Shown in pieces: positions 35,461 through 56,140 of a stretch of 64,000 nucleotides of DNA. Position numbers and translations under genes: made by a program. How positions within the stretch are numbered: the first letter of the stretch is position 1; every line of letters starts with the position of its first letter. The stretch comes from Octopus sinensis (lineage: Eukaryota), in the NCBI RefSeq assembly GCF_006345805.1, contig NC_042999.1, forward strand, positions 72,230,001-72,294,000, written 5' to 3'. A model generated the notes under the pieces. It was not told the origin of the DNA. It made no database searches and worked only from the letters and a program-made list of their open reading frames with translations.

Positions 35461-35900
35461 TCTTTATATATATAAAACTGAGAATGTGTGTCTGTCTGTC
35501 TGTCTGTCTGTGTGTTTCCCTAAAACTCGAGAACTACACAACCAATTTCATTCAAATTTTACACATGTCTTACTTAGGGTCCGGGGAGTGTCATCGGCAA
35601 AACAAATTTTGAAATTTTTGCCTAGGGCGAGCCCACAGCAATATCATATCTTCTCCCCTACGATTCCCTAAAACTTGAGAACTACACAACCAATTCCATT
35701 CAAATTTTACACATGCCTTACATAGGGGCCATGTAGTTTCATGGGCAATAAAAATGTTTAACTTCTTGCCTAGAGCGAGCCCATAGCAATATCATATCTT
35801 CTCCACTATTTCAGTATTACGTGTTAAAAGTGAAACAAAAACGTTTCTCTATTTTATGTCAGATACTTTCACTTTAACAATAAAAATAATAATAACAATT
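35461..35900 (+). mobile_element. Helitron-like 5' region with (GTCT)n and a ~145-bp internal tandem duplication
   Basis: Starts A|TCTTTATATATATAAAACTGAG followed by (TCTG)n, the layout of non-autonomous invertebrate Helitrons. Direct repeats at 35518-35658 and 35666-35805. Confidence 0.65.
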
Positions 35901-36049
35901 GAATTATATGTAGTAAGTAATAATTAAAATCAAACTAAAGTATAATATAATCGTAACATAACAAAAGTAAAATAGCAAATTGGTATAAAATTGCATCAAT
36001 GACTTGAACTTGAATAAGTGGTTTCACATAATGGGAATAAATTAAAAAT

Positions 36050-36152
36050 AAAATTAGCGTGCAGAATGGAATAGTCCAATGGATAAAAAATTAAATTAAA
36101 GAAAAGACTATTGTCTATAGTATACATGTAGAGAAAAAAGAGATTTTGAACA
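36050..36152 (+). pseudogene. 5' part of an older LINE ORF1 paralogue (D), interrupted by the array
   Basis: 36104-36151 reads KTIVYSIHVEKKEILN (compare unit A KTVTYRTQDKSTKKLAR) and continues in frame at 55660 as MEKSTFEKCLG. Confidence 0.65.
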
Positions 36153-36290
36153 GCGTGTCGGAAATTTACCTCACGTGTGTTGTATCTGTGAGTAGACGTT
36201 GAAATTTCTTGTGTAAAGTGATTAATATGCGCGCAGGCATTTGCCTCCACGTTTGGAACCTTCTGAAGAAGGTGAATTGACCCTCTAGTC

Positions 36291-37670
36291 ATGGCGACTT
36301 ACGCGGGGGTCACGGGAAAGAATAATAATGATTCGGCAATAATCGTGAAGGATGTTTTCTTTGAGAAAAGTAAAATCAAAAATATGAAAAGCCTATCAAA
36401 AGGGAGGGTGATAGCGTGAAGCTAATCCCCCGCGAAGCAAAGGAGGACAAGGAAAACAAAACGTAACGTATAGAACCCAGGACAAAAGTACAAAGAAACT
36501 GGCAAGAGTGGAGATAGCAGAGATCGAAAAATGTCTGGGAGACATAATGGATAAATCGACCTACGTGAGTAGAGGAAAAAAATTTGGTACCGGTGGAGGT
36601 GAGATGTGCACGGAACAGAAATTGCAGCCTCTCACTGGCTACCACTGTTCTAAGATCGGAAAATTTATAATGTGGCCCTCATACAAGGGAAGAAGAGGGG
36701 TCCGGGTTAAAATCCCGAATATACCCCCAGAAGTAAAAACAGAATGGCTGGCAACAGCTTTCTAGGAGCAGCAGAAAAAAGAGGAGTGAGGGGAATCCTT
36801 TAAGGAGTCCAACGCAGTAAATTGGAGAGGATATGGGGTAGACTGTGTTGTTGATGGCCACAAAAGAGGACATTGAAAGGTTCCCCTATAGAATAGAAAT
36901 CGAAGACGAGAAACCCTCAGTGTAATTGTAGAGGGAAGAAAGCCAAACTGCTACTTGTGCGGGACAAGGGGCACATTAAAAAAGAGTGCCCGTTATATGA
37001 TTCATGGCGGAGTATGAGAAGGAAAATGAAGAAAAGAAGAATACGGGAAATGAAAAAGAAAACATAGAAAAGGAGACAAACCAAGAGAAGGAAATAATAG
37101 TCAACGAAGAAAGAAATAAAAGAAAAGAAAGAAATAGAACCAAAACAGAGTCAGGAAAAGAAAAAAGGAAAAAGAAACAACAGGAAAAACAAGAGAGAGA
37201 ACAGAACCAAACGAAAGAAAAGACGGCACACAAAAAGAAAAAGAAAAGAAACATAAACACAGAAGAAAGAGAAACAGACAAAGAACCAAAAGACAAGAGA
37301 AGGAAGAAGAAAGAAAAGAAGGCAAAAAGAGAGAAGAGAGAAACAAAGAGAGGAGAACAAGGAAGAAATAAGCCCAAAAGAAAAACGAGAGAAAACGTAG
37401 GACGGAACAAGATTACTACAAGTTATAACCTCCATTCCAGCCCCGAAATGAAGGAATTGACATGTAGTATGGAGGGACATGTGTGGGTCAACAGGATGAC
37501 TGATCAGTGGCAGGAGACTGCTCTGATCCCCGAAGAAAGAGTCGCTGAGTTCCTCAGAGCAGCTGGAGAGAGTGTAATTTTTTAACCCGGTTGTTCGAGT
37601 GAAAGAGGGCTGCCTGAGGGCTCAGTGATTGACTTTAGAGACTTGAAAAGTAATTATGGAATACGTGTGA
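36291..37670 (+). CDS. ORF1-like CCHC zinc-knuckle nucleic-acid-binding protein, unit A1 (frameshifted as assembled)
   Basis: ATGGCGACTTAC start. ORF 37004-37585 shows the K/E/R-rich tract and the C-terminal domain in one frame. Confidence 0.75.
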
Positions 37671-38045
37671 GATTGTGAGAGGAGAGAGAAGAAAGAAGAG
37701 AAAAAAGAAAAAAAAATTGTGAACTATAGGTGACGAAAATGTAACCTCTCGATTCCGGGGATCGAGTGGGCATTTGCATCTCATTGTAAATATTCTTTCA
37801 TTTGTCATTTTTATTTTTATTTTTTTCCTTCTTGTCATTTCGCTTTCTTATTTTAAGTTCCCCGATTGTATTGTCCCCTCTATGTTCGCCCCTTGTGGGT
37901 ATAAAAATCAGTGTCGGAATTTACCCACGTGTGTTGTTATCTGTGATTAGACGTTGAAATTTTGTTGTGTAAAGTGATTAATATCGCGCAGGCATTTGCC
38001 TCCACGTTTGGAAACCTCTGAAGAAGGTGAATTGACCCTCTAGTC

Positions 38046-39439
38046 ATGGCGACTTACGCGGGGGTCACGGGAAAGAATAATAATGATTCGGCAATAATCG
38101 TGAAGGATGTTTTCTTGAGAAAAGTAAAATCAAAGAATATGAAAAGCTATTCAAAGGGAGGGTGATAGCGTGAAGCTAATCCCCCCCGCGAAAGCAAAGG
38201 AGGACAAGGAAAACAAACTGTAACGTATAGAACCCAGGACAAAAGTACAAAGAAACTGGCAAGAGTGGAGATAGCAGAGATCGAAAAATGTCTGGGAGAC
38301 ATAATGGATAAATCGACCTACGTGAGTAGAGGAAAAAATTTGGTACGGTGGAGGTGAGATGTGGCAACGGAAGAAATTGCAGCCTCACTGGCTACCACTG
38401 TTCTAAGAGCGGAAACATTTATAATGTGGCCCTCATACAAGGGAAGAAGAGGGGTCCGGGTTAAAATCCCGAATATACCCCCAGAAGTAAAAACAGAATG
38501 GCTGGCAACAGCTATTCTAGGAGCAGCAGAAGAGGAAGTGGAGGTGGAATCCTTAAGGAGTCCAACGCAGTAAATTGGAGAGGATATGGGGTAGAACTGT
38601 GTTTGATGGCCACAAAAGAGGACATTGAAAGGTTCCCCTATAGAATAGAAATCGAAGACGAGAAAACCCTCAGTGTAATTGTAGAGGGAAGAAGAAAGCC
38701 AAACTGCTACTTGTGCGGGACAAGGGGGCACATTAAAAAAGAGTGCCCGTTATATGAATTCATGGCGGTATGAGAAGGAAAATGAAGAAAAGAAGAATAC
38801 GGGAAATGAAAAAGAAAACATAGAAAAGGAGACAAAACACAACAAGAAAGGAAATAATAAGTCAACGAAGGAAAAAGAAATAAAAGAAAAGAAAGAAATA
38901 GAACCAAAACAGAGTCAGGAAAAGAAAAAGGAAAAGAAAACAACAGGAAAAAAACAAGAGAGAGAACAGAACCAAACGAAAAGAAAAGACGGCACACAAA
39001 AAGAAAAAGAAAAGGAACATAAAACACGAGAGAAAGAGAGAACAGACAAAGAACCAAAAAGACAAGAGAAGGAAGAAGAAAGAAAAGAAGGCAAAAGAGA
39101 AAGAGAGAAACAAAGAGAGGAGAACAAGGAAGAATAAGCCCGAAAAGAAAAACGAGAGAAAACGTAGGACGGAAACAAGATTACTACAAGTTAATAACCT
39201 TCCATTCCAGCCCCGAAATGAAGGAATTGACATGTAGTATGGAGGGACATGTGTGGGTCAACAGGATGACTGATCAGTGGCAGGAGACTGCTCTGATCCC
39301 CGAAGAAAGAGTCGCTGAGTTCCTCAGAGCAGCTGGAGAGAGTGTAATTTTTTACACGGGTGTTCGAGTGAAAGAGCGGCTGCCTGAGGGCTCAGTGATT
39401 GACTTTAGAGACTTGAAAAGTATTATGGAATACGTGTGA
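38046..39439 (+). CDS. ORF1-like zinc-knuckle protein, unit A2 (frameshifted as assembled)
   Basis: Same sequence as the other A units. Contains CYLCGTRGHIKKEC and ends SIMEYV*. Confidence 0.78.
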
Positions 39440-39824
39440 GATTGTGAGAGGAGAGAGAAGAAAGAAGAGAAAAAAGAAAAAAAAAAATTGTGAACTATAG
39501 GTGACGAAAATGTAACCTCTCGATTCCGGGGATCGAGTGGGCATTTGCATCTCATTGTAAATATTCTTTCATTTGTCATTTTTATTTTTATTTTTTCCCT
39601 TCTTGTCATTTCGCTTTCTTATTTTAAGTTCCCCGATTGTATTGTCCCCTCTATGTTCGCCCCTTGTGGGTAGTAATAAAATCAGCGTGTCGGAAATTTA
39701 CCCACGTGTGTTGTTATCTGTGATTAGACGTTGAAATTTTGTTGTGTAAAGTGATTAATATCGCGCAAGGCATTTGCCTCCACGTTTGGAAACCTTCTGA
39801 AGAAGGTGAATTGACCCTCTAGTC

Positions 39825-41218
39825 ATGGCGACTTACGCGGGGGTCACGGGAAAGAATAATAATGATTCGGCAATAATCGTGAAGGATGTTTTCTTTGAGA
39901 AAAGTAAAATCAAAGAATATGAAAAGCTATTCAAAAGGGAGGGTGATAGCGTGAAGCTAATCCCCCCCGCGAAAGCAAAGGAGGACAAGGAAAACAAAAC
40001 TGTAACGTATAGAACCCAGGACAAAAGTACAAAGAAACTGGCAAGAGTGGAGATAGCAGAGATCGAAAAATGTCTGGGAGACATAATGGATAAATCGACC
40101 TACGTGAGTAGAGGAAAAAAATTTGGTACGGTGGAGGTGAGATGTGCAACGGAAGAAATTGCAGCCTCACTGGCTACCACTGTTCTAAGAGCGGAAACAT
40201 TTATAATGTGGCCCTCATACAAGGGAAGAAGAGGGGTCCGGGTTAAAATCCCGAATATACCCCCAGAAGTAAAAACAGAATGGCTGGCAACAGCTATTCT
40301 AGGAGCAGCAGAAGAGGAAGTGGAGGTGGAATCCTTTAAGGAGTCCAACGCAGTAAATTGGAGAGGATATGGGGTAGAACTGTGTTTGATGGCCACAAAA
40401 GAGGACATTGAAAGGTTCCCCTATAGAATAGAAATCGAAGACGAGAAAACCCTCAGTGTAATTGTAGAGGGAAGAAAGCCAAACTGCTACTTGTGCGGGA
40501 CAAGGGGGCACATTAAAAAAGAGTGCCCGTTATATGAATTCATGGCGGAGTATGAGAAGGAAAATGAAGAAAAGAAGAATACGGGAAATGAAAAAGAAAA
40601 CATAGAAAGGAGACAAAACAACAAGAGAAAGGAAATAATATCAACGAAGGAAAAAGAATAAAAGAAAAGAAAGAAATAGAACCAAAACAGAGTCAGGAAA
40701 AGAAAAGGAAAAGAAGACAACAGGAAAAAAACAAGAGAGAGAACAGAACCAAACGAAAAGAAAAGACGGCACACAAAAAGAAAAAGAAAAGGAACATAAA
40801 ACACGAGAGAAAGAGAGAACAGACAAAGAACCAAAAGACAAGAGAAGGAAGAAGAAAGAAAAGAAGGCAAAAAGAGAGAAAGAGAGAAACAAAGAGAGGA
40901 GAACAAGGAAGAAATAAGCCCGAAAAGAAAAACGAGAGAAAACGTAGGACGGAAACAAGATTACTACAAGTTAATAACCTTCCATTCCAGCCCCGAAATG
41001 AAGGAATTGACATGTAGTATGGAGGGACATTGTGGGTCAACAGGATGACTGATCAGTGGCAGGAGACTGCTCTGATCCCCGAAGAAAGAGTCGCTGAGTT
41101 CCTCAGAGCAGCTGGAGAGAGTGTAATTTTTTACACGGGTGTTCGAGTGAAAGAGCGGCTGCCTGAGGGCTCAGTGATTGACTTTAGAGACTTGAAAAGT
41201 ATTATGGAATACGTGTGA
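39825..41218 (+). CDS. ORF1-like zinc-knuckle protein, unit A3 (~465-aa consensus; frameshifted as assembled)
   Basis: A 278-aa open frame from MATYAGVTG through CYLCGTRGHIKKEC (CX2CX4HX4C), then a basic tract and the C-terminal domain ending SIMEYV*. Confidence 0.82.
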
Positions 41219-41599
41219 GATTGTGAGAGGAGAGAGAAGAAGAAGAGAAAAAAAAAAAAAAAAATTGTGAACTATAGGTGACGAAAATGTAACCTCTCGA
41301 TTCCGGGGATCGAGTGGGCATTTGCATCTCATTGTAAATATTCTTTCATTTGTCATTTTTATTTTTATTTTTTCCCTTCTTGTCATTTCGCTTTCTTATT
41401 TTAAGTTCCCCGATTGTATTGTCCCCTCTATGTTCGCCCCTTGTGGTAGTAATAAAATCAGCGTGTCGGAAATTACCCACGTGTGTTGTTATCTGTGATT
41501 AGACGTTGAAATTTTGTTGTGTAAAGTGATTAATATCGCGCAAGGCATTTGCCTCCACGTTTGGAAACCTTCTGAAGAAGGTGAATTGACCCTCTAGTC

Positions 41600-42997
41600 A
41601 TGGCGACTTACGCGGGGGTCACGGGAAAGAATAATAATGATTCGGCAATAATCGTGAAGGATGTTTTCTTTGAGAAAAGTAAAATCAAAGAATATGAAAA
41701 GCTATTCAAAAGGGAGGGTGATAGCGTGAAGCTAATCCCCCCCGCGAAAGCAAAGGAGGACAAGGAAAACAAAACTGTAACGTATAGAACCCAGGACAAA
41801 AGTACAAAGAAACTGGCAAGAGTGGAGATAGCAGAGATCGAAAAATGTCTGGGAGACATAATGGATAAATCGACCTACGTGAGTAGAGGAAAAAAATTTG
41901 GTACGGTGGAGGTGAGATGTGCAACGGAAGAAATTGCAGCCTCACTGGCTACCACTGTTCTAAGAGCGGAAACATTTATAATGTGGCCCTCATACAAGGG
42001 AAGAAGAGGGGTCCGGGTTAAAATCCCGAATATACCCCCAGAAGTAAAAACAGAATGGCTGGCAACAGCTATTCTAGGAGCAGCAGAAGAGGAAGTGGAG
42101 GTGGAATCCTTTAAGGAGTCCAACGCAGTAATTGGAGAGGATATGGGGTAGAACTGTGTTTGATGGCCCAAAAAGAGGACATTGAAAGGTTCCCCTATAG
42201 AATAGAAATCGAAGACGAGAAAACCCTCAGTGTAATTGTAGAGGGAAGAAAGCCAAACTGCTACTTGTGCGGGACAAGGGGGCACATTAAAAAGAGTGCC
42301 CGTTATATGAATTCATGGCGGAGTATGAGAAGGAAAATGAAGAAAAGAAGAATACGGGAAATGAAAAAGAAAACATAGAAAGGAGACAAAACAACAAGAG
42401 AAAGGAAATAATAAGTCAACGAAGGAAAAGAAATAAAAGAAAAGAAAGAAATAGAACCAAAACAGAGTCAGGAAAAGAAAAAGGAAAAGAAACAACAGGA
42501 AAAAAACAAGAGAGAACAGAACAAACAAAAGAAAAGAAAAGACGGCACACAAAAGAAAAAGAAAAGGAACATAAAACACGAGAGAAAGAGAGAACAGACA
42601 AAGAAAAAAAAGACAAGAGAAGGAAGAAGAAAGAAAAGAAGGCAAAAAGAGAGAAAGAGAGAAACAAAGAGAGGAGAACAAGGAAGAAATAAGCCCGAAA
42701 AGAAAACGAGAGAAAACGTAGGACGGAAAACAAGATTACTACACAAGTTAATAACCTTCCATTCCAGCCCCCGAAATGAAGGAATTGACATGTAGTATGG
42801 AGGGACATGTGTGGGTCAACAGGATGACTGATCAGTGGCAGGAGACTGCTCTGATCCCCGAAGAAAGAGTCGCTGAGTTCCTCAGAGCAGCTGGAGAGAG
42901 TGTAATTTTTTACACGGGTGTTCGAGTGAAAGAGCGGCTGCCTGAGGGCTCAGTGATTGACTTTAGAGACTTGAAAAGTATTATGGAATACGTGTGA
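41600..42997 (+). CDS. ORF1-like zinc-knuckle protein, unit A4 (frameshifted as assembled)
   Basis: ORF pieces 41600-42151, 42160-42378, 42315-42692 and 42776-42997 tile the consensus protein. Confidence 0.8.
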
Positions 42998-43380
42998 GAT
43001 TGTGAGAGGAGAGAGAAGAAAGAAGAGAAAAAAGAAAAAAAAATTGTGAACTATAGGTGACGAAAATGTAACCTCTCGATTCCGGGGATCGAGTGGGCAT
43101 TTGCATCTCATTGTAAATATTCTTTCATTTGTCATTTTTATTTTTATTTTTTCCCTTCTTGTCATTTCGCTTTCTTATTTTAAGTTCCCCGATTGTATTG
43201 TCCCCTCTATGTTCGCCCCTTGTGGGTAGTAATAAAATCAGCGTGTCGGAAATTTACCCACGTGTGTTGTTATCTGTGATTAGACGTTGAAATTTTGTTG
43301 TGTAAAGTGATTAATATCGCGCAAGGCATTTGCCTCCACGTTTGGAAACCTTCTGAAGAAGGTGAATTGACCCTCTAGTC

Positions 43381-44774
43381 ATGGCGACTTACGCGGGGGT
43401 CACGGGAAAGAATAATAATGATTCGGCAATAATCGTGAAGGATGTTTTCTTTGAGAAAAGTAAAATCAAAGAATATGAAAAGCTATTCAAAGGGAGGGTG
43501 ATAGCGTGAAGCTAATCCCCCCCGCGAAAGCAAAGGAGGACAAGGAAAACAAAACTGTAACGTATAGAACCCAGGACAAAAGTACAAAGAAACTGGCAAG
43601 AGTGGAGATAGCAGAGATCGAAAAATGTCTGGGAGACATAATGGATAAATCGACCTACGTGAGTAGAGGAAAAAAATTTGGTACGGTGGAGGTGAGATGT
43701 GCAACGGAAGAAATTGCAGCCTCACTGGCTACCACTGTTCTAAGAGCGGAAACATTATAATGTGGCCCTCATACAAGGGAAGAAGAGGGGTCCGGGTTAA
43801 AATCCCGAATATACCCCCAGAAGTAAAAACAGAATGGCTGGCAACAGCTATTCTAGGAGCAGCAGAAGAGGAAGTGGAGGTGGAATCCTTTAAGGAGTCC
43901 AACGCAGTAAATTGGAGAGGATATGGGGTAGAACTGTGTTTGATGGCCACAAAAGAGGACATTGAAAGGTTCCCCTATAGAATAGAAATCGAAGACGAGA
44001 AAACCCTCAGTGTAATTGTAGAGGGAAGAAAGCCAAACTGCTACTTGTGCGGGACAAGGGGCACATTAAAAAAGAGTGCCCGTTATATGAATTCATGGCG
44101 GAGTATGAAAGGAAAATGAAGAAAAGAAGAATACGGGAAATGAAAAAGAAAACATAGAAAGGAGACAAAACAACAAGAGAAAGGAATAATAAGTCAACGA
44201 AGGAAAAGAAATAAAAGAAAAGAAAGAAATAGAACCAAAACAGAGTCAGGAAAAGAAAAGGAAAAAAACAACAGGAAAAAAAAAACAAGAGAGAGAACAG
44301 AACCAAACGAAAAGAAAAGACGGCACACACAAAAAGAAAAAGAAAAGGAACATAAAACACGAGAGAAAGAGAAACAGACAAAGAACCAAAAAGACAAGAG
44401 AAGGAAGAAGAAAGAAAAGAAGGCAAAAAGAGAGAAAGAGAGAAACAAAGAGAGGAGAACAAGGAAGAAATAAGCCCGAAAAGAAAACGAGAGAAAACGT
44501 AGGACGGAAACAAGATTACTACAAGTTAATAACCTTCCATTTCAGCCCCGAAATGAAGGAATTGACATGTAGTATGGAGGGACATGTGTGGGTCAACAGG
44601 ATGACTGATCAGTGGCAGGAGACTGCTCTGATCCCCGAAGAAAGAGTCGCTGAGTTCCTCAGAGCAGCTGGAGAGAGTGTAATTTTTTACACGGGTGTTC
44701 GAGTGAAAGAGCGGCTGCCTGAGGGCTCAGTGATTGACTTTAGAGACTTGAAAAGTATTATGGAATACGTGTGA
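43381..44774 (+). CDS. ORF1-like zinc-knuckle protein, unit A5 (frameshifted as assembled)
   Basis: ATG at 43381. ORF pieces 43506-43760, 43697-44119 and 44553-44774. Confidence 0.78.
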
Positions 44775-45154
44775 GATTGTGAGAGGAGAGAGAAGAAAGA
44801 AGAGAAAAAAGAAAAAAAAAATTGTGAACTATAGGTGACGAAATGTACCTCTCGATTCCGGGGATCGAGTGGGCATTTGCATCTCATTGTAAATATTCTT
44901 TCATTTGTCATTTTTATTTTTATTTTTTCCCTTCTTGTCATTTCGCTTTCTTATTTTAAGTTCCCCGATTGTATTGTCCCCTCTATGTTCCCCTTGTGGG
45001 TAGTAATAAAATCAGCGTGTCGGAAATTTACCCACGTGTGTTGTTATCTGTGATTAGACGTTGAAATTTTGTTGTGTAAAGTGATTATATCGCGCGCAGG
45101 CATTTGCCTCCACGTTTGGAAACCTTCTGAAGAAGGTGAATTGACCCTCTAGTC

Positions 45155-46544
45155 ATGGCGACTTACGCGGGGGTCACGGGAAAGAATAATAATGCGGCAA
45201 TAATCGTGAAGGATGTTTTCTTTGAGAAAAGTAAAATCAAAGAATATGAAAAGCTATTCAAAGGGAGGGTGATAGCGTGAAGCTAATCCCCCCCGCGAAA
45301 GCAAAGGAGGACAAGGAAAACAAAACTGTAACGTATAGAACCCAGGACAAAAGTACAAAGAAACTGGCAAGAGTGGAGATAGCAGAGATCGAAAAATGTC
45401 TGGGAGACATAATGGATAAATCGACCTACGTGAGTAGAGGAAAAAAATTTGGTACGGTGGAGGTGAGATGTGCAACGGAAGAAATTGCAGCCTCACTGGC
45501 TACCACTGTTCTAAGAGCGGAAACATTTATAATGTGGCCCTCATACAAGGGAAGAAGAGGGGTCCGGGTTAAAATCCCGAATATACCCCCAGAAGTAAAA
45601 ACAGAATGGCTGGCAACAGCTATTCTAGGAGCAGCAGAAGAGGAAGTGGAGGTGGAATCCTTTAAGGAGTCCAACGCAGTAAATTGGAGAGGATATGGGG
45701 TAGAACTGTGTTTGATGGCCACAAAAGAGGACATTGAAAGGTTCCCCTATAGAATAGAAATCGAAGACGAGAAAACCCTCAGTGTAATTGTAGAGGGAAG
45801 AAAGCCAAACTGCTACTTGTGCGGGACAAGGGGGCACATTAAAAAAGAGTGCCCGTTATATGAATTCATGGCGGAGTATGAGAAGGAAAATGAAGAAAAG
45901 AAGAATACGGAAATGAAAAAGAAAACATAGAAAAGGAGACAAAACAACAAGAGAAAGGAAATAATAAGTCAACGAAGGAAAAAGAAATAAAAGAAAAGAA
46001 AGAAATAGAACCAAAACAGAGTCAGGAAAAGAAAAAGGAAAAAGAAACAACAGGAAAAAAACAAGAGAGAACAGAACCAAACGAAAAGAAAAGACGGCAC
46101 ACAAAAGAAAAAGAAGGAACATAAAACACGAGAGAAAGAGAGAACAGACAAAGAACCAAAAAGACAAGAGAAGGAAGAAGAAAGAAAAGAAGGCAAAAAG
46201 AGAGAAAGAGAGAAACAAAGAGAGGAGAACAAGGAAGAAATAAGCCCGAAAAGAAAAACGAGAGAAAACGTAGGACGGAAACAAGATTACTACAAGTTAA
46301 TAACCTTCCATTCCAGCCCCGAAATGAAGGAATTGACATGTAGTATGGAGGGACATGTGTGGGTCAACAGGATGACTGATCAGTGGCAGGAGACTGCTCT
46401 GATCCCCGAAGAAAGAGTCGCTGAGTTCCTCAGAGCAGCTGGAGAGAGTGTAATTTTTTACACGGTGTTCGAGTGAAAGAGCGGCTGCCTGAGGGCTCAG
46501 TGATTGACTTTAGAGACTTGAAAAGTATTATGGAATACGTGTGA
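45155..46544 (+). CDS. ORF1-like zinc-knuckle protein, unit A6 (frameshifted as assembled)
   Basis: ATG at 45155. The 217-aa open piece 45277-45930 includes the knuckle. Confidence 0.78.
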
Positions 46545-46925
46545 GATTGTGAGAGAGAGAGAAGAAGAAGAGAAAAAAGAAAAAAAAATTGTGAACTATA
46601 GGTGACGAAAATGTAACCTCTCGATTCCGGGGATCGAGTGGGCATTTGCATCTCATTGTAAATATTCTTTCATTTGTCATTTTTATTTTTATTTTTTTTT
46701 TTTTCTTGTCATTTCGCTTTCTTATTTTAAGTTCCCCGATTGTATTGTCCCCTCTATGTTCGCCCCTTGTGGGTAGTAATAAAATCAGCGTGTCGGAAAT
46801 TTACCACGTGTGTTGTTATCTGTGATTAGACGTTGAAATTTTGTTGTGTAAAGTGATTAATATCGCGCAGGCATTTGCCTCCACGTTTGGAAACCTTCTG
46901 AAGAAGGTGAATTGACCCTCTAGTC

Positions 46926-48306
46926 ATGGCGACTTACGCGGGGGTCACGGGAAAGAATAATAATGATTCGGCAATAATCGTGAAGGATGTTTTCTTTGAG
47001 AAAAGTAAAATCAAAGAATATGAAAAGCTATTCAAAAGGGAGGGTGATAGCGTGAAGCTAACCCCCCCCGCGAAAGCAAAGGAGGACAAGGAAAACAAAA
47101 CTGTAACGTATAGAACCCAGGACAAAAGTACAAAGAAACTGGCAAGAGTGGAGATAGCAGAGATCGAAAAATGTCTGGGAGACATAATGGATAAATCGAC
47201 CTACGTGAGTAGAGGAAAAAATTTGGTACGGTGGAGGTGAGATGTGCAACGGAAGAATTGCAGCCTCACTGGCTACCACTGTTCTAAGAGCGGAAACATT
47301 TATAATGTGGCCCTCATACAAGGGAAGAAGAGGGGTCCGGGTTAAAATCCCGATATACCCCCAGAATTAAAAACAGAATGGCTGGCAACAGCTATTCTAG
47401 GAGCAGCAAAAGAGGAAGTGGAGGTGGAATCCTTTAAGGAGTCCAACGCAGTAAATGGAGAGGATATGGGGTAGAACTGTGTTTGATGGCCACAAAAGAG
47501 GACATTGAAAGGTTCCCCTATAGAATAGAAATCGAAGACGAGAAAACCCTCAGTGTAATTGTAGAGGGAAGAAAGCCAAACTGCTACTGTGCGGGACAAG
47601 GGGGCACATTAAAAAAGGTGCCCGTTATATGAATTCATGGCGGAGTATGAGAAGGAAATGAAGAAAAGAAAATACGGGAAATGAAAAAGAAAACATAGAA
47701 AAGAGACCAAAACAACAAGAGAAAGGAAATAATAAGTCACGAAGGAAAAAGAATAAAAGAAAGAGAAATAGAACCAAAACAGAGTCAGAAAGAAAAGGAA
47801 AAAGAAACAACAGGAAAAAAACAAGAGAGAGAACAGAACCAAACGAAAAGAAAAGACGGCACACAAAAAGAAAAAGAAAAGGAACATAAAACACGAGAGA
47901 AAGAGAGAACAGAAAAGAACCAAAAACAAGAGAAGGAAGAAGAAAGAAAAGAAGCAAAAAGAAGAAAGAGAGAACCAAAGAGAGGAGAACAAGGAAGAAA
48001 TAAGCCCGAAAAGAAAACGAGAGAAAACGTAGGACGGAAACAGATTACTACAAGTTAATAACCTTCCATTCCAGCCCCGAAATGAAGGAATTGACATGTA
48101 GTATGGAGGGACATGTGTGGGTCAACAGGATGACTGATCAGTGGCAGGAGACTGCTCTGATCCCCGAAGAAGAGTCGCTGAGTTCCTCAGAGCAGCTGGA
48201 GAAGAGTGTAATTTTTTACACGGGTGTTCGAGTGAAAAGCGGCTGCCTGCCTGAGGGCTCAGTGATTGACTTTAGAGACTTGAAAAGTATTATGGAATAC
48301 GTGTGA
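46926..48306 (+). CDS. ORF1-like zinc-knuckle protein, unit A7 (frameshifted as assembled)
   Basis: ORF pieces 46926-47240 and 48082-48306 match the A consensus. Confidence 0.75.
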
Positions 48307-48547
48307 GATTGTGAGAGGAGAGAGAAAAAGAAGAGAAAAAGAAAAAAAAATTGTGAACTATAGGTGACGAAAATGTAACCTCTCGATTCCGGGGATCGAG
48401 TGGGCATTTGCATCTCATTGTAAATATTCTTTCATTTGTCATTTTTATTTTTATTTTTTCCCTTCTTGTCATTTCGCTTTCTTATTTTAAGTTCCCCGAT
48501 TGTATTGTCCCCTCTATGTTCGCCCCTTGTGGGTAGTAATAAAATCA

Positions 48548-50449
48548 GCGTGTCGGAATCTATCCACATGTGTTGTGAGTTATTTTGTATGTGAAAATTG
48601 GAAAAAAGACGGTTAAAAGTTGTCAAAAATTGAATCGCGCGAGGCGTTTTGCCGCTGCGTGTTTGAACCTTTTATAGAAGGTGTGTCGACCCTCAAGTCA
48701 TGGGACTTACGCGGGGTCGCCACAACAAAAGTGACGAGTCACTTAGAATAAAAGAAGTGTTCTTTAGAAAGAACAATTGAAAGAATACGAGAAGTTCGTC
48801 AAAAGGGAGGGTGATAGCGTGAAGCTGGTCGCCTGTGGAAACATAGAAGAGAAAAATAACATCACGATAACGTATAGAACGCAAGATAGAAACACGAGAA
48901 AACTGGTGAGAGTGACGATTGAAGAAATAGAGAAATGTCTGGGGGACATCATGAAAAAGCGACTTTTGTAGACAGAGGAAAGAAATATGGTACGGTGGAG
49001 GTGAGATTGCGCAACAAGGAAGTTGCGGCCTCATTGGCTTCCACTGTCCTGAAGCGGAAAATTTCACCATGTGGCCGACTTATAAAGGAAGACGAGGGTA
49101 CGGGTAAGATCCCAAAGGTACCCCCAAATATTAAAACAGAATGCTGTAACAGCCATTATTGGAGCAGCAAAAGAGGAAGTAGAAATAGGGTCAATTAAGG
49201 AGACGAACGTTGTAAATTGGAAGGGATTCGGAGTCGAGTTGTGGCTGATGGCCACAATGGAAGACATCGAAAGATTTCCCCTCCAAATAGAAATAGAAAA
49301 CGAGAAGACAATTATGTAATAGTGGAGGCAGAAAACCGAACTGCTACCTGTGCGGATCAAGAGGGCACATAAAAAAGGAATGTCCGCTGTATGAATTCAC
49401 AGCGGAGCAAAAAGAGACACAAAGGGAGAGAAGGAAAACGAACACGAAGGAAAGAACAGCGAAAACAAGGAAAAGGAAATAACGGAGAAACAACAAGAGA
49501 AGGGAAGTAACAGCGCACTGAAGGAAAATGAAACAAAGGGAAGAAGATAGTAGAAAAGGAGCAAAATTCACAGGGGCAGAAGTAGTGGAGAAGAGCCAAG
49601 GCAGAAGCAGAGAAAGAAAAGGAAAGTACATAAAGGAAAGAGAAAAAGCAGAAAAGAACAAGAGAAGGAACAGAACAAGAGAAAGGAAAAGATGGTATGC
49701 AAAAAGGAAAGAACAACAGAAAGGAACTTAAGGCACAGGGTAGAGAGACGGCAGACAAAGAGCCAAAAGACAAGAAGAGGAAAAAGAAAGAAGAGAAAGC
49801 AAAAAGAGAGAAAGAGAGAAACCGAGGAGGAAAAAAAGAGGAAGTAAGTCCTAAGAGAAAAACTAGAGAAAACGTAAGTACGAATAGAAAATTAAAATAC
49901 TATGGAACGTTTGATCCATCACAGCACTGTGAGGAGATGGAATATTTAATAAGCGTAACAAACGGATATACGTGGGTCAGGATGGGCACCGAATGGAAAG
50001 AAACAGGTGCACTCGTCCACGAGAACGACGCCGAGGCGTTCATCGAGGCAGCTGCAAGAACGTGTCAAAACATATGAAATGCCGACTTACAAGGTGGCCT
50101 CGAACGATGGAAGTTTACTCAGATTTGGTAGACATAATGGAGTATATATAAAGAAAGGTATTGTGAAAACTTTTAATTTGGAAATGATAAAAGAACTTTA
50201 AATTCGGAAAAAAAAAAAAAAAAAATTTTGAACTTTGTAAAACTTTTGTGAAATGTATGTTGAAAATGTATAAATGTTTTATTTGGAAAATATTGTTGAC
50301 GAATAAAAAATAAATGACGAAATGTAACCGCTCGATTTCGGGGATCGAGTGGGCATTGCACCACATTGTACAAACTTCATAATTCATTATTCATTTTCCC
50401 GATTGTATTGTCCCATCTATGTAGCCCCTAGTGGGTTATAATAAAACAA
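48548..50449 (+). mobile_element. Divergent ORF1-only non-autonomous unit B (1.9 kb)
   Basis: Starts GCGTGTCGGAATC and ends CCCGATTGTATTGTCCCATCTATGTAGCCCCTAGTGGGTTATAATAAAACAA. Collinear with, but clearly diverged from, unit A. Confidence 0.9.
48700..50201 (+). CDS. ORF1-like zinc-knuckle protein, paralogue B (frameshifted as assembled)
   Basis: KEYEKFVKREGDSVKL, EKCLGDIM, RGKKYGTVEVR, knuckle CYLCGSRGHIKKEC, basic tract, and C-terminal domain NGYTWVRMGTEWKETGALV. Confidence 0.8.
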
Positions 50450-50677
50450 GCGTGTCGGAAATCATTTTTTTTGCGTTATTAGTAAGTTGATATATTTTTG
50501 CTCTCGTACTGTTGTCTCTGTTATTATATACTGTTGGTCTACCTGTTTTGTCTATTGTTGTCTAACTGACGAAGTCAGCCTTCGCGCGAGGACTTCGCGT
50601 TGGTGTTCCCCCCTCAGTGGGGGAAAACTAAAATTAATTTTGATTTACCAAAGGCTTGTTAAAGCCATTTGTTCAAG

Positions 50678-52018
50678 ATGGAGTCCCCCATCTCTTATTC
50701 GCCCGTGACGAGCGAGGATGAATACCCGGCGTTGTCGCCAAGTAAAAAAGAGGCGTTGTCGCCAAGAAAAAAGAGGCGGCGTCGCCCAAGAAAATGGAAA
50801 ACCAGTACCAGCATCAACTCCAGCAAAAAAATTCGCTGAAGTGGCTGGGAAAAGATCAAAAAAATAAATATAGAAAATTTTAAAAAATTTGCAGACTGTG
50901 TAAAAAAAGAAGGCACAGAAGTGACTGTGGCCACAAACATACAAATACATGACGATATAGAAAAAGAATAATATATAAAACTTACGACACAACGAGAAAA
51001 TTATCAAAAAATCGAAGAAAAAAAATAGAGTTTTGTCTAAAACCTTTTATGGATAAAATAACGTATATAAACAGAGGAAAAAGATACGGCACAGTGGAGG
51101 TGCGTTTTACTACGGAGGAGATAGCGAAGAAACTATCGATGGAGCCAATCAAAGCGGAAAACATTGTCTTACTACCATTGTATAAAGGAAAAAGGACGTC
51201 GAAAATTTCAATGAACAACATACGCCAGAGGCAGATGCTGAATGTCTGGTGGCAGCAGTGATGGTAGGTCTGGAGGAAAAAATAAACATCCTCCAGGCCA
51301 CAGTGGAGGAAGAGGAGTTTTGGAAAGAGCAAAAAATAGTGATAGCCATTCAGGCGGAGGTGCAAACACTGGAAGAAATTCCAGAAACGGTAAAGATTAG
51401 TGAAGACGAGAAAATAACAGTTTTCGTGGAGGGCAGGAAGCCGAGGTGCTTCGGCTGCGGCAAGAAGGGTCATGTAAGGGCGGAATGCCAACCCCAACCC
51501 AAACCGCAGGAGGCACCTAAGCCAAAAGAAAAAGAAGATAATGTGTCAGCAAAAGCAGCGTCGGACGACCCAGAAGGGAAGACTGAAGGTGTGGAGGTGA
51601 CGGTGACAGCAGAACCAGCGGCGGAGGAAAAAAGAGCGAGAAAAGATAAATGAGGAGGGGTGAGCAAAAATTACCGGAAGAAAAAAAGAAAAACGGAAAC
51701 CCCCCTCCCAGAGTAATTTTAAAAAAGAAAAAAGAGTCAATGAACTCGTATATGGCCGTAAAGGCAGGAAATAGCAGACTCGGAAACGTGTTGGCAGCCA
51801 TGGCCAAAGTGGAGAAAGTAGTGAAAAAAAACGACTTTGTAATTTACAGAATAGGCCGGAAGGATTACGGGCGGATAAAGTCAGAATTCTTCCATGACGG
51901 AGGCCCACTTAGATTGGATGTGACATCTCCACATATATTCGAGGGCCTACGTCAGACTCCCCCACGAGGCCCAGAAAAAGAGTTAGAAGAACAAGAGAAA
52001 ACCGAACCACTGATATAA
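50678..52018 (+). CDS. LINE ORF1 (CCHC zinc knuckle; frameshifted as assembled)
   Basis: MESPISYSP start, then MDKITYINRGKRYGTVEVRF and VEGRKPRCFGCGKKGHVRAEC. The stop is at 52016-52018, just before ORF2. Confidence 0.82.
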
Positions 52019-52025
52019 GTAAGTA

Positions 52026-55000
52026 ATGGATTACATTATGTTGGTGTTTGAATGTGCGCGGCCTGGGAGCAGGCTGGAAGCAAGGTCGCTTCATGATATA
52101 TCAGGTCGCTTAATTTAGATGTTATTGTTGCTACAGAAACCCGGTTAGAGGGGCCAAGAGGTCTACTCCCGCTGTTTGACGGCTACGAGAGTTTTTTCTC
52201 TCCTGGCAGTCCTACAGGCGGGAGTGGGGTGTTGGTCCTATTAAAAAGAAACCGGGTTTCTGAGAAAAAGTTAATTTTTGCAGATCCAGAAGGTAGGCTG
52301 GTCGTCATGGATTTGACGTTCAGTAATGGTAAAGTTATCAGACTGGTTGCAATTTACACACCCAACCATACAGGGCAAAGTGATTATTTTCGTGAACTAG
52401 AAAACTTTCTTGGTACTTCGCATTCATTAGTGGTGCTAGGAGACTTTAACACAATTTGCAAAGCGGATGTAGATTATGTTGGCTCGTGTCCAGATAGAAA
52501 AGGCAACAGTGGCTTCATGGAACTGCTAAGCCGCTTTGAGCTAGCAGATCCTTATAGGCTGGAATTCCGAACGCTCCATTGTGGACATGGTCAAACAGCG
52601 ACGGATCTTCCAGGTCATATTTAGATAGAATACTAATTAGAAAAGTAGACAGTAAAAATAGCTAAGTGTCCACAGTTTTACCCGATCAGCTACAGTGATC
52701 ATAAAATGGTCACTTGTAAGCTTGACATAGATAAGGTAAAAATAGAGGATCCGGTTCTGGAAACTTAATACGTCCTTTTGGCGATTATTAGGAGTACAAA
52801 GACCGGATTAGGAATATAATTCAGAGGGCACTATCTGGTACCATCATTAATAACAAATGGTGGTACGCCCTCAAACGAGCCATCAAGTTTGAGTCTATTA
52901 GATATAGCATAGGAGTAGTGGCTAGAGAGGCTAGAAGGGAAACTACTTAGTTAAGGAATTAGAGGAAGCCATGAAAACTGGCTCTGCGGCTCAGGTGGCG
53001 TCCTAGAGACTGGTGTAAACCAGCACCTCGAGGCCAAACACATGGGCTGCATTGTCAGGGCTAGAATCCGCCATATGGGATGTGAAGGAATCAACGCCGT
53101 AAGATGGGCCCGAGTGGTGGAAGCTCAGCATGGTAACGATGCCACGATTCGATCTTTGACGAACCAACAAGGTGAGTTGATAAACGAAACCGAGGAGATG
53201 TGTGAGGCCTTTCAGGAGCACTTCGCTCAGCTTTTCGGTGAGTGCGGCGGACTGGATAGGAGAGAGGCCTTTACGGACCTACTCGACGGGCTGCCGCGCT
53301 TATCGGGGCGAGATGCGGAGGGCTGTGAAGGCCAATCACGCCTGAGGAGGTGGTTGAGGCAATGGCGGACTGCGGCGCGGGCAAGGCGCCGGGTTTGGAT
53401 GGTCTACCCTATGAGTTATATAAGAGTATGCCAGACTTGTTCGGGCACCTACTGGCGGAGGTCTATGCGAACTGGCAGCAGAACGGGCTTATACCCAGAT
53501 CTGTGCGCCGGGGAGTAGTGACTCTCGTCAGAAAGGACCCGAGCAAGGGGGAGTGCATTGATAATTTCAGGCCCATCACTCTGCTAAACACAGAGTTGAA
53601 GATTTTGGCCAAAGTGTTATCGAAAAGATTGGCGCGTGTCGCGGATGGTCTGATCGGAGAGGCACAGACATGTGCCGTTCCGGGCAGATCCATTCAGGAT
53701 AATCTCCATATAATGCGGTACACTATAGAGGGATATAATAGTGATTCTGGCAAGGGTGGGGCACTGGTCCATTTAGACCAATCTAAAGCTTTTGATAGGG
53801 TCGACCATCGTTACCTGGTATCTGCCCTGGCACAGTTCGGGCTGAGCCTTGGCTTCCTCAGGTGGATTATCCAAATTTATGATAACATCGACTCGGTAGT
53901 TCGGGTGAACGGCTTCTTGTCGAAGCCGTTCAAAATCAAACGCTCGGTTCGTCAAGGGTGTCCGCTCTCCCCGCTTTTGTACGTGATGGCTCTTCAGCCA
54001 TTATTGCGAAAACTGAGCGGCATCCCGAGACAGCCAGGTAATTGAAAATCAGTGTCAGCGTACGCGGATGACATCACCATCATCGTAACCGAAATGGACC
54101 ACCTATGTAATGTAGGCAAGGCCATAGAGGTTTACGAGACGGTGACAGGAGCAAAAGTTAATCGCGAAAAGTCAGTCGGCTTGCAACTGGGCACCTGGAG
54201 AGGCAAGTCGATGCCTCCTGACAGCGTCGTGGGACGTTGGACGGAGGGTCCGATTAAACTGCTAGGGGTCTGGTTCGGTCCAGACCTCCAAATAGAGAAG
54301 AATTGGGGCGAGGTAACGAGCAAGGTGGCTGCAGTAGCCAAGACCTGGTCTTGGCGGTGGCTATCCCTGAAAGGGGGGCGGAGGTGGCCAATGTGTTTAT
54401 CGCATCGGTTATCACCTACCGCCTTTCCGTCGTTCCTTGCCCTGATTCGTGGTTGATCAAGTTGGAAGACAGCTCTTCTACTTCTTGTGGAAGGGCGGGA
54501 AACCACTTGTGAAACGCTCTACTTGCTGTCAACAACCGTTAAAGGGTGGGCTAGGGATGCCTTGGCTGATGATGCGCAGACATGCGCTGAGGTTAAGACA
54601 TCTGTGGCTCTACCTGGATGGTGAACGGGTGTGGTCTTCGCTAGCAAAACTGATGTTTCCCAAGTTCACTAGTTTCGGTGGATGGGAAACCTGGCTGAAT
54701 CGTAGATCGAAACTTGGTACTTGGTACACGGAGTGTCGCAAGGCTCTCCTGCTATTCCGTCGCTCGGGCAACGCCTGCGGTGGGGGTTCCACCACATTCT
54801 TCTATAGAGGGTTGGTAGAGGCGGAATGTGAAGATACCTTGGGGGAAACCCTAGGTCTCGACGATAATCAGCTGGCCAGTCTGTTCCGACGTACGTTCGA
54901 GCCGAGGACACTGGACAACTTCCAGAAGTCTCTGGCATGGCAATGCTACAGAGGAGCTCTACCTGTTCGGGATAAACGCGCAAGGCACGGTGGCCAAGAC

Positions 55001-55411
55001 AGTCCGATATGTCCAAGATGCGGGCGGGATAGGGAAACCGTCCCGCACGCTATTGTTCATTGTCCGGACGTGTCTGAGGTGTGGGTTTATGCCGAACACC
55101 TGTTGTCAGGTACACGAAGAGTACAGCTGTCGACTGAGTCGATTACAAAAATTGACCCACCGGATTTCCTCGTGAATGAAGGTAAGTTTCGTTTTCTCGT
55201 TGTAGTAGCAATTGCGAAAGAGGTGATATGGAAGACGAGAATGAAAGGTGTACAGTCAGGCAAGTTCATCTCCGGCCCTGGTTTGATGAAGTATTTCATC
55301 TTTCACCTGAAAAGGAAGATAGGGCTGGAGAGAATATGCCTGACTAGGAGAGTGTATGAAGAACGATGGAAGGATGTAGCACGAAAGTTGCGAGTGAAAG
55401 ATACAACATAA
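52026..55411 (+). CDS. LINE ORF2: APE endonuclease, reverse transcriptase, C-terminal zinc finger (frameshifts and one in-frame TGA as assembled)
   Basis: APE motifs LNVRGL, AIYTPN, VLGDFN, YLDRI and SDH. RT motifs APGLDG, FRPITLLN, LDQSKAFDRV, VRQGCPLSPLLY and YADD (54061-54072). C-terminal CPRCGRDRETVPHAIVHC. Confidence 0.92.
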
Positions 55412-55656
55412 ATGTAATACCAAGCGCAACCAAAAGTATCAGTGGGGAGGCGGGGCTCGTGGGGTCCGAGCTAAAACCGCACCCACTCCACCCGTAATGT
55501 CTTCCGGTCTGTCCCATCATTCGATTTCTGTCCATTTATAGTAATTCATGAAAATTTTTAAATTCGATTTATTGTAAAAACCCATTCGTGTGTCTGACCC
55601 CATCATCAGATTGTATTGTCCCATCTATGTTCGCCCCTTGTGGGTAATAATAAAAC

Positions 55657-55960
55657 AACATGGAGAAAAGCACCTTCGAAAAGTGTCTTGGTGCGACTAT
55701 GAAAGGTATCTATCAGAGGCGGTAAATTCGCCACAAAAGAAGCAAGGTTCGAGTCAACGGAGCGTGCAAGGGAGTACTCGACTCGAACTTGCAAAGTGGA
55801 AATATTTTATTTTTACCATTATATCTGGGACGTAAGACGTCCCGGAAAAAATATTTAAATCCCCAAAGAAGTAGAGGTTGGCTGGATTGTAGCCACACTT
55901 CTATACAAAAGGGAGGACAAGATACAATTGATTGAAATTACAAGAGACGGGCCTACAATT
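55657..55960 (+). pseudogene. 3' part of the older ORF1 paralogue D (target of the array)
   Basis: With frameshifts it reads MEKSTFEKCLGATMK / IRGGKFATKEARFESTERAREYST / ILFLPLYLGRKTSR / IPKEVEVGWIVATLL. This is collinear with EKCLGDIM / RGKKFGTVEVR / LLPLYKGKRTSK / IPPEVKTEWLATAIL in units A and C. Confidence 0.8.
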
Positions 55961-56098
55961 CCAGTCTGTTATATATTTTGAGTATTGTTATCACTAGCGA
56001 TATCAAGATATAACTTTGTATTTTGTATTTTATGTGTATATGTATATATATAGATGTACATGTAATATGTACACATATATATACACATATATACATGC

Positions 56099-56140
56099 AC
56101 TAGCACTATGACCCGGCAACGACGAGTCTTTAATGCTAGT
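56099..56140 (+). mobile_element. Helitron-like 3' terminus (GC hairpin plus CTAG|T)
   Basis: GACCCGGCAACGACGAGTC imperfect hairpin followed by TTTAATGCTAG|T. Confidence 0.55.

What the first reader, a model, noticed from the sequence alone, without database searches (positions are those of the whole stretch)
48490..48562. Conserved non-poly(A) terminal signal shared by autonomous and ORF1-only units
Seen: A ends GATTGTATTGTCCCCTCTATGTTCGCCCCTTGTGGGTAGTAATAAAATCA, B ends GATTGTATTGTCCCATCTATGTAGCCCCTAGTGGGTTATAATAAAACAA (to 50449), and C ends GATTGTATTGTCCCATCTATGTTCGCCCCTTGTGGGTAATAATAAAAC(AA) (to ~55656). The upstream 3' UTR of C shows no evident similarity to those of A and B. The motif holds a small GCCC-N5-GGGT hairpin, and GATTGTATTG can pair with TAATAAAATC. 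At junctions, upstream CCGA can also pair with TCGG of the next unit's 5' end. Inference: this is a stringent 3' recognition element for the RT, unusual for L1-clade elements, which typically use poly(A). It may also be a junction-spanning structure for processing or for template jumping.
Basis: partly seen in the sequence, partly recalled or inferred. Interest (0 to 1): 0.75.

Follow-up and report, generated by a model that had tools for sequence, protein, structure and literature searches.

The report
Shared poly(A)-free retrotransposon tail
In this animal genome (likely an octopus), a LINE jumping gene, several shorter relatives that lack the copying enzyme and a very abundant short repeat all end in the same roughly 50-base tail at one exact base, with no poly(A); the tail is likely the handle by which the LINE's enzyme recognises and copies them.

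Summary
The tail is real. It occurs 9 times in the window (seven A units, B, C) and 457 times in the genome (control 0). Elements end exactly 2 nt after AATAAAA or AAAGAAA, where 12-19-nt target-site duplications begin. Only 1 of 529 tails carries an A12 run, and that copy is a SINE. The same core ends further ORF1-only families and about 79,000 SINE-type matches, which supports stringent 3' recognition. The structural claims are weaker: the GCCC/GGGY hairpin is conserved but shows no significant covariation, and the CCGA/TCGG junction pairing is not conserved. The linker between units is a target-derived tag. The train sits at one site inside a non-autonomous Helitron-like element; 30 of 40 independently sampled C copies abut that site. 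The tail also holds UGUA and AAUAAA, so the RNA may still be polyadenylated downstream. The scan had already noted the shared tail several times on other DNA of this genome. Verdict: new variant of a known kind.

The parts
48498..48546 (+). 3' tail of ORF1-only unit A7 (the finding); element ends at 48546
   Evidence: end fixed by TSD starts in other copies
48522..48534 (+). Conserved small hairpin core GCCC-N5-GGGT (alternative register CCC-N4-GGG); middle loop base differs between families
   Evidence: no significant covariation
48538..48543 (+). AATAAA hexamer, 3 nt before the element end; TGTA lies at 48501-48504
   Evidence: sequence; counts
48547..48559 (+). Linker (tag) between A7 and B; same tag at 36152, at the A/A junctions and at 50449; a diverged copy of the target site
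50401..50448 (+). 3' tail of ORF1-only unit B
55609..55657 (+). 3' tail of unit C (45 of 49 nt identical to the A tail)
37864..37909 (+). tail of A1 (indels)
39635..39683 (+). tail of A2
41412..41459 (+). tail of A3
43191..43239 (+). tail of A4
44967..45013 (+). tail of A5
46738..46786 (+). tail of A6
36152..48546 (+). Seven head-to-tail ORF1-only A units of about 1.77 kb (CCHC zinc knuckle, no RT)
48547..50448 (+). ORF1-only unit B (about 72% DNA identity to A over ORF1)
50449..55657 (+). Unit C: ORF1 (zinc knuckle) plus ORF2 (APE endonuclease 52097-52624, RT 53329-54456, zf-RVT to 55411); frameshifts and a stop in this copy
35461..36151 (+). Left part of the host non-autonomous Helitron-like element (5' TC after A; internal 148-bp duplication)
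55658..56139 (+). Right part of the host element: target site ACATGG..., subterminal hairpin 56110-56128, CTAG end before T
48382..48400 (+). Second UTR hairpin shared by A and B, absent from C

Best explanation
The 49-nt motif is the exact, poly(A)-free 3' end shared by an L1/Tx1-like LINE (unit C), several ORF1-only families and a very abundant SINE, and it likely acts as the RNA handle that the LINE's ORF2 protein binds to start reverse transcription at one fixed base. Shown: shared tail, exact end, no A tail in DNA, 12-19-nt TSDs starting at that base, preferred insertion at one site of a non-autonomous Helitron-like element, tandem trains separated by target-like linkers. Inferred: ORF2p recognises the GCCC/GGGY core and the A-rich end; the RNA runs past the end into the duplicated target bases (the tail's own UGUA and AAUAAA would place cleavage 10-30 nt further on), and these bases likely pair with the nicked target strand as in R1Bm, so no A is copied. 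Passengers likely acquired the tail by template switching; repeated insertion at the regenerated site likely built the train.
For: Exact end: 13 of 25 held train ends outside the Helitron have a 12-19-nt TSD, all 13 starting at or within 1 nt before the base 2 nt past AATAAAA/AAAGAAA; 4 of 6 SINE TSDs of 9 nt or more start there too. No A tail: 87 of 93 anchored contexts have no extra A, 5 have 1-3 and 1 has 9; 1 of 529 genome-wide has A12, a SINE copy. Unbiased sampling by upstream markers: 59 of 60 copies carry the tail, and 38 of 40 in a second set. Insertions of only about 100 nt with TSD keep the whole tail (L031, L058). Sharing: A and C tails are 45 of 49 identical although their ORF1 proteins are 30-45% identical and their UTRs unrelated; F/G ORF1-only units (26-36% to A ORF1) carry the core; 79,090 matches of a SINE-type tail pattern against 2 control matches, SINE head with A/B-box-like motifs in most of 30 loci read. 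Targeting: 19 of 30 host copies are empty at the site; 30 of 40 C copies abut the host's right part; near-identical C copies sit in unlike host copies. R1Bm needs downstream target sequence (PMC7265360, passage).
Against: No covariation above shuffles for either extended structure (85 and 56 of 500 shuffles reach the score); RNAalifold finds 2 pairs, none compensatory; the hairpin register is ambiguous. No protein-RNA or retrotransposition experiment exists. A TSD of 12 nt or more was not found for 12 of 25 off-Helitron ends. Two of 40 and 1 of 60 marker-selected copies lack an intact tail. TGTA and AATAAA are nearly universal in A/B/C (88 and 90 of 91) but not in the SINE (3 and 30 of 64), so part of the conservation may serve RNA processing. 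The SINE prefers a different target (GGTAT), so its partner is probably a sister LINE, not C. Weak C-versus-host correlation (rho 0.27, p 0.015) leaves room for some co-movement with the Helitron.
Confidence: 0.7

Rival explanations
1. The tail is mainly a Pol II 3'-processing signal (UGUA plus AAUAAA); the exact DNA end comes only from pairing of read-through target bases with the nicked strand, with little recognition of the tail by the RT.
For: TGTA in 88 of 91 and AATAAA in 90 of 91 A/B/C contexts, against 3 and 30 of 64 in the SINE; off-target sites resemble the target start (AC.TG or ATT classes); no covariation.
Against: The GCCC/GTGGG core is kept in the SINE, which has a Pol III-type head and half the time AGTAAA (34 of 64); SINE copies in unrelated flanks still end at the same base; a poly(A) signal needs no such core.
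Confidence: 0.2
2. The near-identity of tails reflects recent, neutral tail exchange (template switching or gene conversion inside trains), not selection for recognition.
For: Tail variants are shared across families: an identical tail ends A in L087/L088 and C in L062/L088; units lie adjacent in trains.
Against: The core persists in ORF1-only families with 26-36% protein identity, in a distant family that keeps a hairpin in a shifted register, and in about 79,000 SINE-type matches; the homology boundary is sharp and at the same base in contigs from runs under two species labels.
Confidence: 0.07
3. The motif forms a junction-spanning RNA structure (self-cleaving or template-jump signal) that builds the arrays by end-to-end jumping.
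For: CCGA/TCGG pairs in the predicted folds of the A7|B and B|C junctions (z 0.4 and -2.3); window units are all full length; RNAs that carry their own 5' tag could be joined tail to tag.
Against: Pairing absent at C|host and in most other trains; linkers vary by train and match the empty target in the simplest trains; no Rfam ribozyme; solo insertions end at the same base without any downstream unit.
Confidence: 0.05

Closest known systems
Stringent SINE/LINE pairs with a shared 3' tail, including the rare L1-clade cases (maize/sorghum L1 lineage with ZmSINE2/3; Chlamydomonas L1-1_CR with SINEX-3_CR) (PMC3747384, passages)
   Same: Short conserved 3' end (about 45-80 nt) with a small hairpin, shared by LINE and SINE while upstream sequence diverges.
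   Different: Animal L1/Tx1-like lineage; no poly(A) at all (the algal pair ends in poly(A)); shared also by several ORF1-only families; no compensatory changes found here, whereas the plant hairpin has them.
Target-specific Tx1 LINEs and SINEU of crocodilians (Tx1-Mar in Mariner-N4, Tx1-9_AMi in Harbinger; Xenopus Tx1 in Tx1D) (PMC4494074, passages and parts 3-4 of 5)
   Same: Insertion at fixed sites in non-autonomous DNA transposons; tandem insertions sandwiching a TSD; 5' extensions taken from the host element.
   Different: SINEU ends in poly(A) and no LINE sharing the SINEU-1 terminus was found; the host here is Helitron-like; trains are long and mixed; linkers diverge from the empty target.
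HAL1, HeT-A, Ag-Sponge (ORF1-only non-autonomous LINEs) (PMC5786205, passage; the HAL1 paper was not held)
   Same: Encode ORF1p only and depend on an autonomous partner.
   Different: Here they carry a captured sequence tail instead of poly(A); their ORF1 is only 30-45% identical to the partner's.
R1Bm (APE-type, 28S rDNA-specific) (PMC7265360, passage; the primary paper was not held)
   Same: Accurate initiation that needs downstream target sequence; proposed here by analogy. Absence of poly(A) in R1Bm is recalled, not from a call.
   Different: R1 clade, rDNA target; the read-through pairing is untested for this family.

Membership tests
L1-superfamily LINE (unit C) | ORF2 with N-terminal APE endonuclease, RT and C-terminal zinc domain | tested here: met
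   Pfam Exo_endo_phos 2e-10, RVT_1 8e-23, zf-RVT 1e-7 in that order
L1-superfamily LINE (unit C) | RT closer to L1 than to other clades | tested here: inconclusive
   Best solved-structure match is human L1 ORF2p (5e-30) over R2 (8e-21), but only these two clades appeared; no tree
L1-superfamily LINE (unit C) | TSDs and 5' truncation | tested here: met
L1-superfamily LINE (unit C) | 3' poly(A) tail (typical) | tested here: not met
Tx1 clade | RT groups with Tx1 references in a tree | not testable with these tools
   No named Tx1 reference among homologues; Atlas gave nothing. Filed as Tx1-like only.
Tx1 clade | Target preference for a repeat | tested here: met
   30 of 40 C copies at one host site; empty sites 19 of 30
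Tx1 clade | ORF1 with CCHC zinc knuckle (recalled as typical) | tested here: met
   zf-CCHC 6e-5 in A, 0.02 in C
Stringent SINE/LINE tail pair | Shared 3' sequence between LINE and SINE | tested here: met
Stringent SINE/LINE tail pair | Stem-loop supported by compensatory changes | tested here: inconclusive
   Inner helix 96% paired, no two-sided change; scores not above shuffles
Stringent SINE/LINE tail pair | Tail required for retrotransposition | not testable with these tools
   needs a reporter assay
HAL1-like ORF1-only elements (A, B, F/G) | ORF1 present, ORF2 absent, own insertions with TSD | tested here: met
Non-autonomous Helitron (host) | 5' TC, 3' CTRR with subterminal hairpin, inserted between A and T | tested here: met
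   Hairpin and CTAG-type end before T in most of the 26 of 30 loci where the end was found; 5' TC seen in most empty copies
Non-autonomous Helitron (host) | Matching autonomous Rep-Hel element | not tested
   not searched
Self-cleaving ribozyme at the junction | Match to a known ribozyme fold conserved across junctions | tested here: not met
   Rfam none; junction not conserved

The most novel reading that the evidence does not exclude
The tail is a ruler that makes ORF2p start internally on a read-through RNA, and that RNA carries a copy of its landing site at both ends: downstream to pair with the primer strand, upstream as a heritable 5' tag that overwrites the duplicated target. Target choice would then be partly RNA-guided and heritable, drifting from lineage to lineage (ACATGG, ATTCC, AACTGA and GGTAT classes), and any element that captures the tail joins the system.
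Probability: 0.25. Interest if true: 0.75.

Novelty: new variant of a known kind. Interest (0 to 1): 0.5.

Why it matters
[quoted passage not shown] An animal L1/Tx1-like lineage with an exact, poly(A)-free tail, used by ORF1-only passengers and a SINE with tens of thousands of copies, offers a direct test of whether stringent recognition is ancestral in the clade. It names a candidate partner group for a major octopus-type SINE, and it supplies a 50-nt module plus a site-specific LINE of possible use for precise insertion. The components are all known separately.

Tried and rejected
Covariation: two structures on 24 tail variants were not above shuffles. One apparent compensatory hairpin variant (L170) proved to be a single copy in the genome and was dropped. 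Rfam: nothing in the window at gathering scores, only chance hits in 55400-56050. snRNA-type promoter in the host (lead from earlier notes): a motif shared by 15 of 15 U2 upstream regions at about -55 was absent from the 6 host left ends printed, read by eye. Whole train copied with the Helitron: the similar train about 100 kb away (L178/L179) has unrelated flanks, and its B, 3' C and host parts are not nearest to the window's. Co-movement of B and C on one RNA: rho 0.35 was inflated by two overlapping L179 rows; without L179, rho 0.15, p 0.07, 13 loci: open. RNA 3' end: no RNA holder on record; contigs from guessed-RNA runs showed no poly(A) loose end among those shown (24 of 67, 24 of 34), which is no evidence either way. 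ARAGORN found no tRNA gene in 5 SINE loci, so 'tRNA-like head' rests on box-like motifs read by eye. Tx1 naming by homologue names or Atlas failed. Papers not held: Tx1L endonuclease, R1Bm 3' end, HAL1, and an id tried for the original Tx1 paper, so the 3' end of Xenopus Tx1L could not be checked. No supplements were read; Repbase entries could not be searched.

Full report
Observation. The motif is present where stated and ends nine units in the window: seven A units of about 1.77 kb, B (1.9 kb) and C (5.2 kb). A and B encode only an ORF1 with a CCHC knuckle; C adds APE endonuclease, RT and zf-RVT. All ORFs here have frameshifts, many at homopolymers, so I cannot tell whether C is intact. Named relatives of the RT are from Argonauta (64%) and Acanthosepion (51%), so the genome is likely an octopus's. 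A 21-nt pattern matches 457 times in the genome, control 0. The UTR of C upstream of the motif is unrelated to those of A and B.

The end is exact and has no poly(A). I read the surroundings of the first 100 listed matches, as far as held loci cover them (95 distinct contexts; tandem neighbours are not independent). Of 93 with a readable end, 87 have no extra A after AATAAAA/AAAGAAA, 5 have 1-3 and one has 9. Of 27 ends classed as 'other', 2 were in fact followed by another unit and were dropped. Of the remaining 25, 13 have a TSD of 12-19 nt; 10 start exactly 2 nt after the A run and 3 start 1 nt earlier. Three of these TSDs lie in repetitive flanks; 12 ends gave no long TSD. Genome-wide, 529 tails match through the A run and one has A12; that copy is a SINE. 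To avoid selecting on the tail, I picked copies by upstream markers: 30 of 30 C and 29 of 30 A/B loci have the tail, none with poly(A). A further 40 of the 94 C hits gave 38 with an intact tail, one with an internal deletion and one without.

Who shares it. A and C tails are 45 of 49 identical while their ORF1 proteins are 30-45% identical. Additional 1.7-kb ORF1-only families (F/G, 26-36% to A) end in the same core. A related pattern matches 79,090 times (control 2). In the 30 loci read it mostly ends a 230-nt SINE-type element, whose long TSDs start at the same base in 4 of 6 cases and which inserts into its own copies. Sharing of this kind is the classic sign of stringent recognition (PMC3747384 passages; PMC4824008 passages and section 9).

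Structure. GCCC-N5-GGGY occurs in 83 of 91 A/B/C, 44 of 64 SINE and 14 of 16 F/G contexts, and the middle loop base differs by family. Single 49-mers have z -0.5 to -1.3. The core is conserved as sequence; its fold is plausible but unproven. CCGA/TCGG is not conserved. TGTA and AATAAA are nearly fixed in the protein-coding units but not in the SINE, so the tail may also be a Pol II processing signal. From general knowledge, cleavage would fall 10-30 nt downstream, inside the duplicated target.

Context. The train interrupts a 1.0-1.2-kb repeat with Helitron-type ends (35461-36151 and 55658-56139). A 23-nt marker of it matches 532 times, and 19 of 30 loci read are empty at the site. Thirty of 40 independently sampled C copies abut the right part, and near-identical C copies lie in unlike host copies, so this is targeting rather than hitchhiking, though a weak C-host correlation remains (p 0.015). 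In simple trains each junction repeats the empty target (ACATGGAGGAAA), as in tandem SINEU-3 (PMC4494074). In others, including this window, the linker is a diverged version shared across a train and between distant loci, sometimes a chimera of target prefix and element suffix, and some copies carry 7-10 nt of the host's upstream sequence at their 5' end. I infer that the RNA starts just upstream of the target and carries the tag; this is untested.

Mechanism. Most likely (0.7) ORF2p binds the tail core and starts reverse transcription at a fixed base, with read-through target bases pairing to the nicked strand as reported for R1Bm (PMC7265360 passage). Shown: sharing, exact end, TSDs, targeting. 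Inferred: binding, read-through, pairing, tail capture by template switching, sequential build-up of trains. Rivals: processing signal plus pairing alone (0.2), neutral exchange (0.07), junction ribozyme or jump signal (0.05).

Known and new. Stringent tails, Tx1 targeting of DNA transposons, tandem insertion and ORF1-only LINEs are all described. L1-Tx1 families are listed as recently active in Octopus vulgaris without mention of tails (PMC13282606 passages; PMC8967140 passages). Nine library searches (listings, with passages of the papers cited) found no description of this tail or of a Helitron target; Repbase and subscription papers were not searchable. Membership in the Tx1 clade was not tested by a tree. 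Earlier scan notes on other DNA of this genome report the SINE/Tx1 tail repeatedly and one Helitron nest; these are unchecked AI notes, not support. This report adds the end-precision and poly(A) counts, the negative covariation result and multi-locus evidence for Helitron targeting. Verdict: new variant of a known kind, interest 0.5.

Noticed in passing
window 36152-36165, 48547-48559, 50449-50462 versus 55658-55669; L049, L067/L068, L070, L189: Linkers between units are train-specific, diverged copies of the target site, often chimeric, and shared between distant loci; they suggest that the RNA carries the landing site at its 5' end.
   Followed up: partly
L251-L290: The autonomous unit C is usually the 3'-most unit of a train, with passengers upstream; co-movement of B and C was inconclusive.
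   Followed up: partly
host element; window 55955-55965: Two host variants exist (with and without about 300 bp); insertion sites in both lie 7 nt past the shared left end despite different sequence, and an ATT-preferring subfamily uses the second.
   Followed up: partly
window 48382-48400 and 50330-50348: A second perfect UTR hairpin is shared by A and B (295 genome matches) but absent from C.
   Followed up: no
L178/L179 (G000:C3:72.15-72.17 Mb): A second train of the same layout and tag lies about 100 kb from the window in unrelated flanks, with a B/C chimera.
   Followed up: partly
L082, L087/L088, L262: Another repeat serves as a shared target (AACTGA/ACTTGG class) for A, B and C variants.
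   Followed up: no
L170-L177, L080, L077: A distant family with the hairpin in a shifted register ends next to TATC microsatellites.
   Followed up: no
L185 (G000:C1:69.55 Mb): The host left part plus one A unit is itself tandemly repeated, so arrays also grow by DNA-level duplication or misassembly.
   Followed up: no
window 35516-35808: 148-bp tandem duplication inside the host's left part, shared with some empty copies.
   Followed up: no
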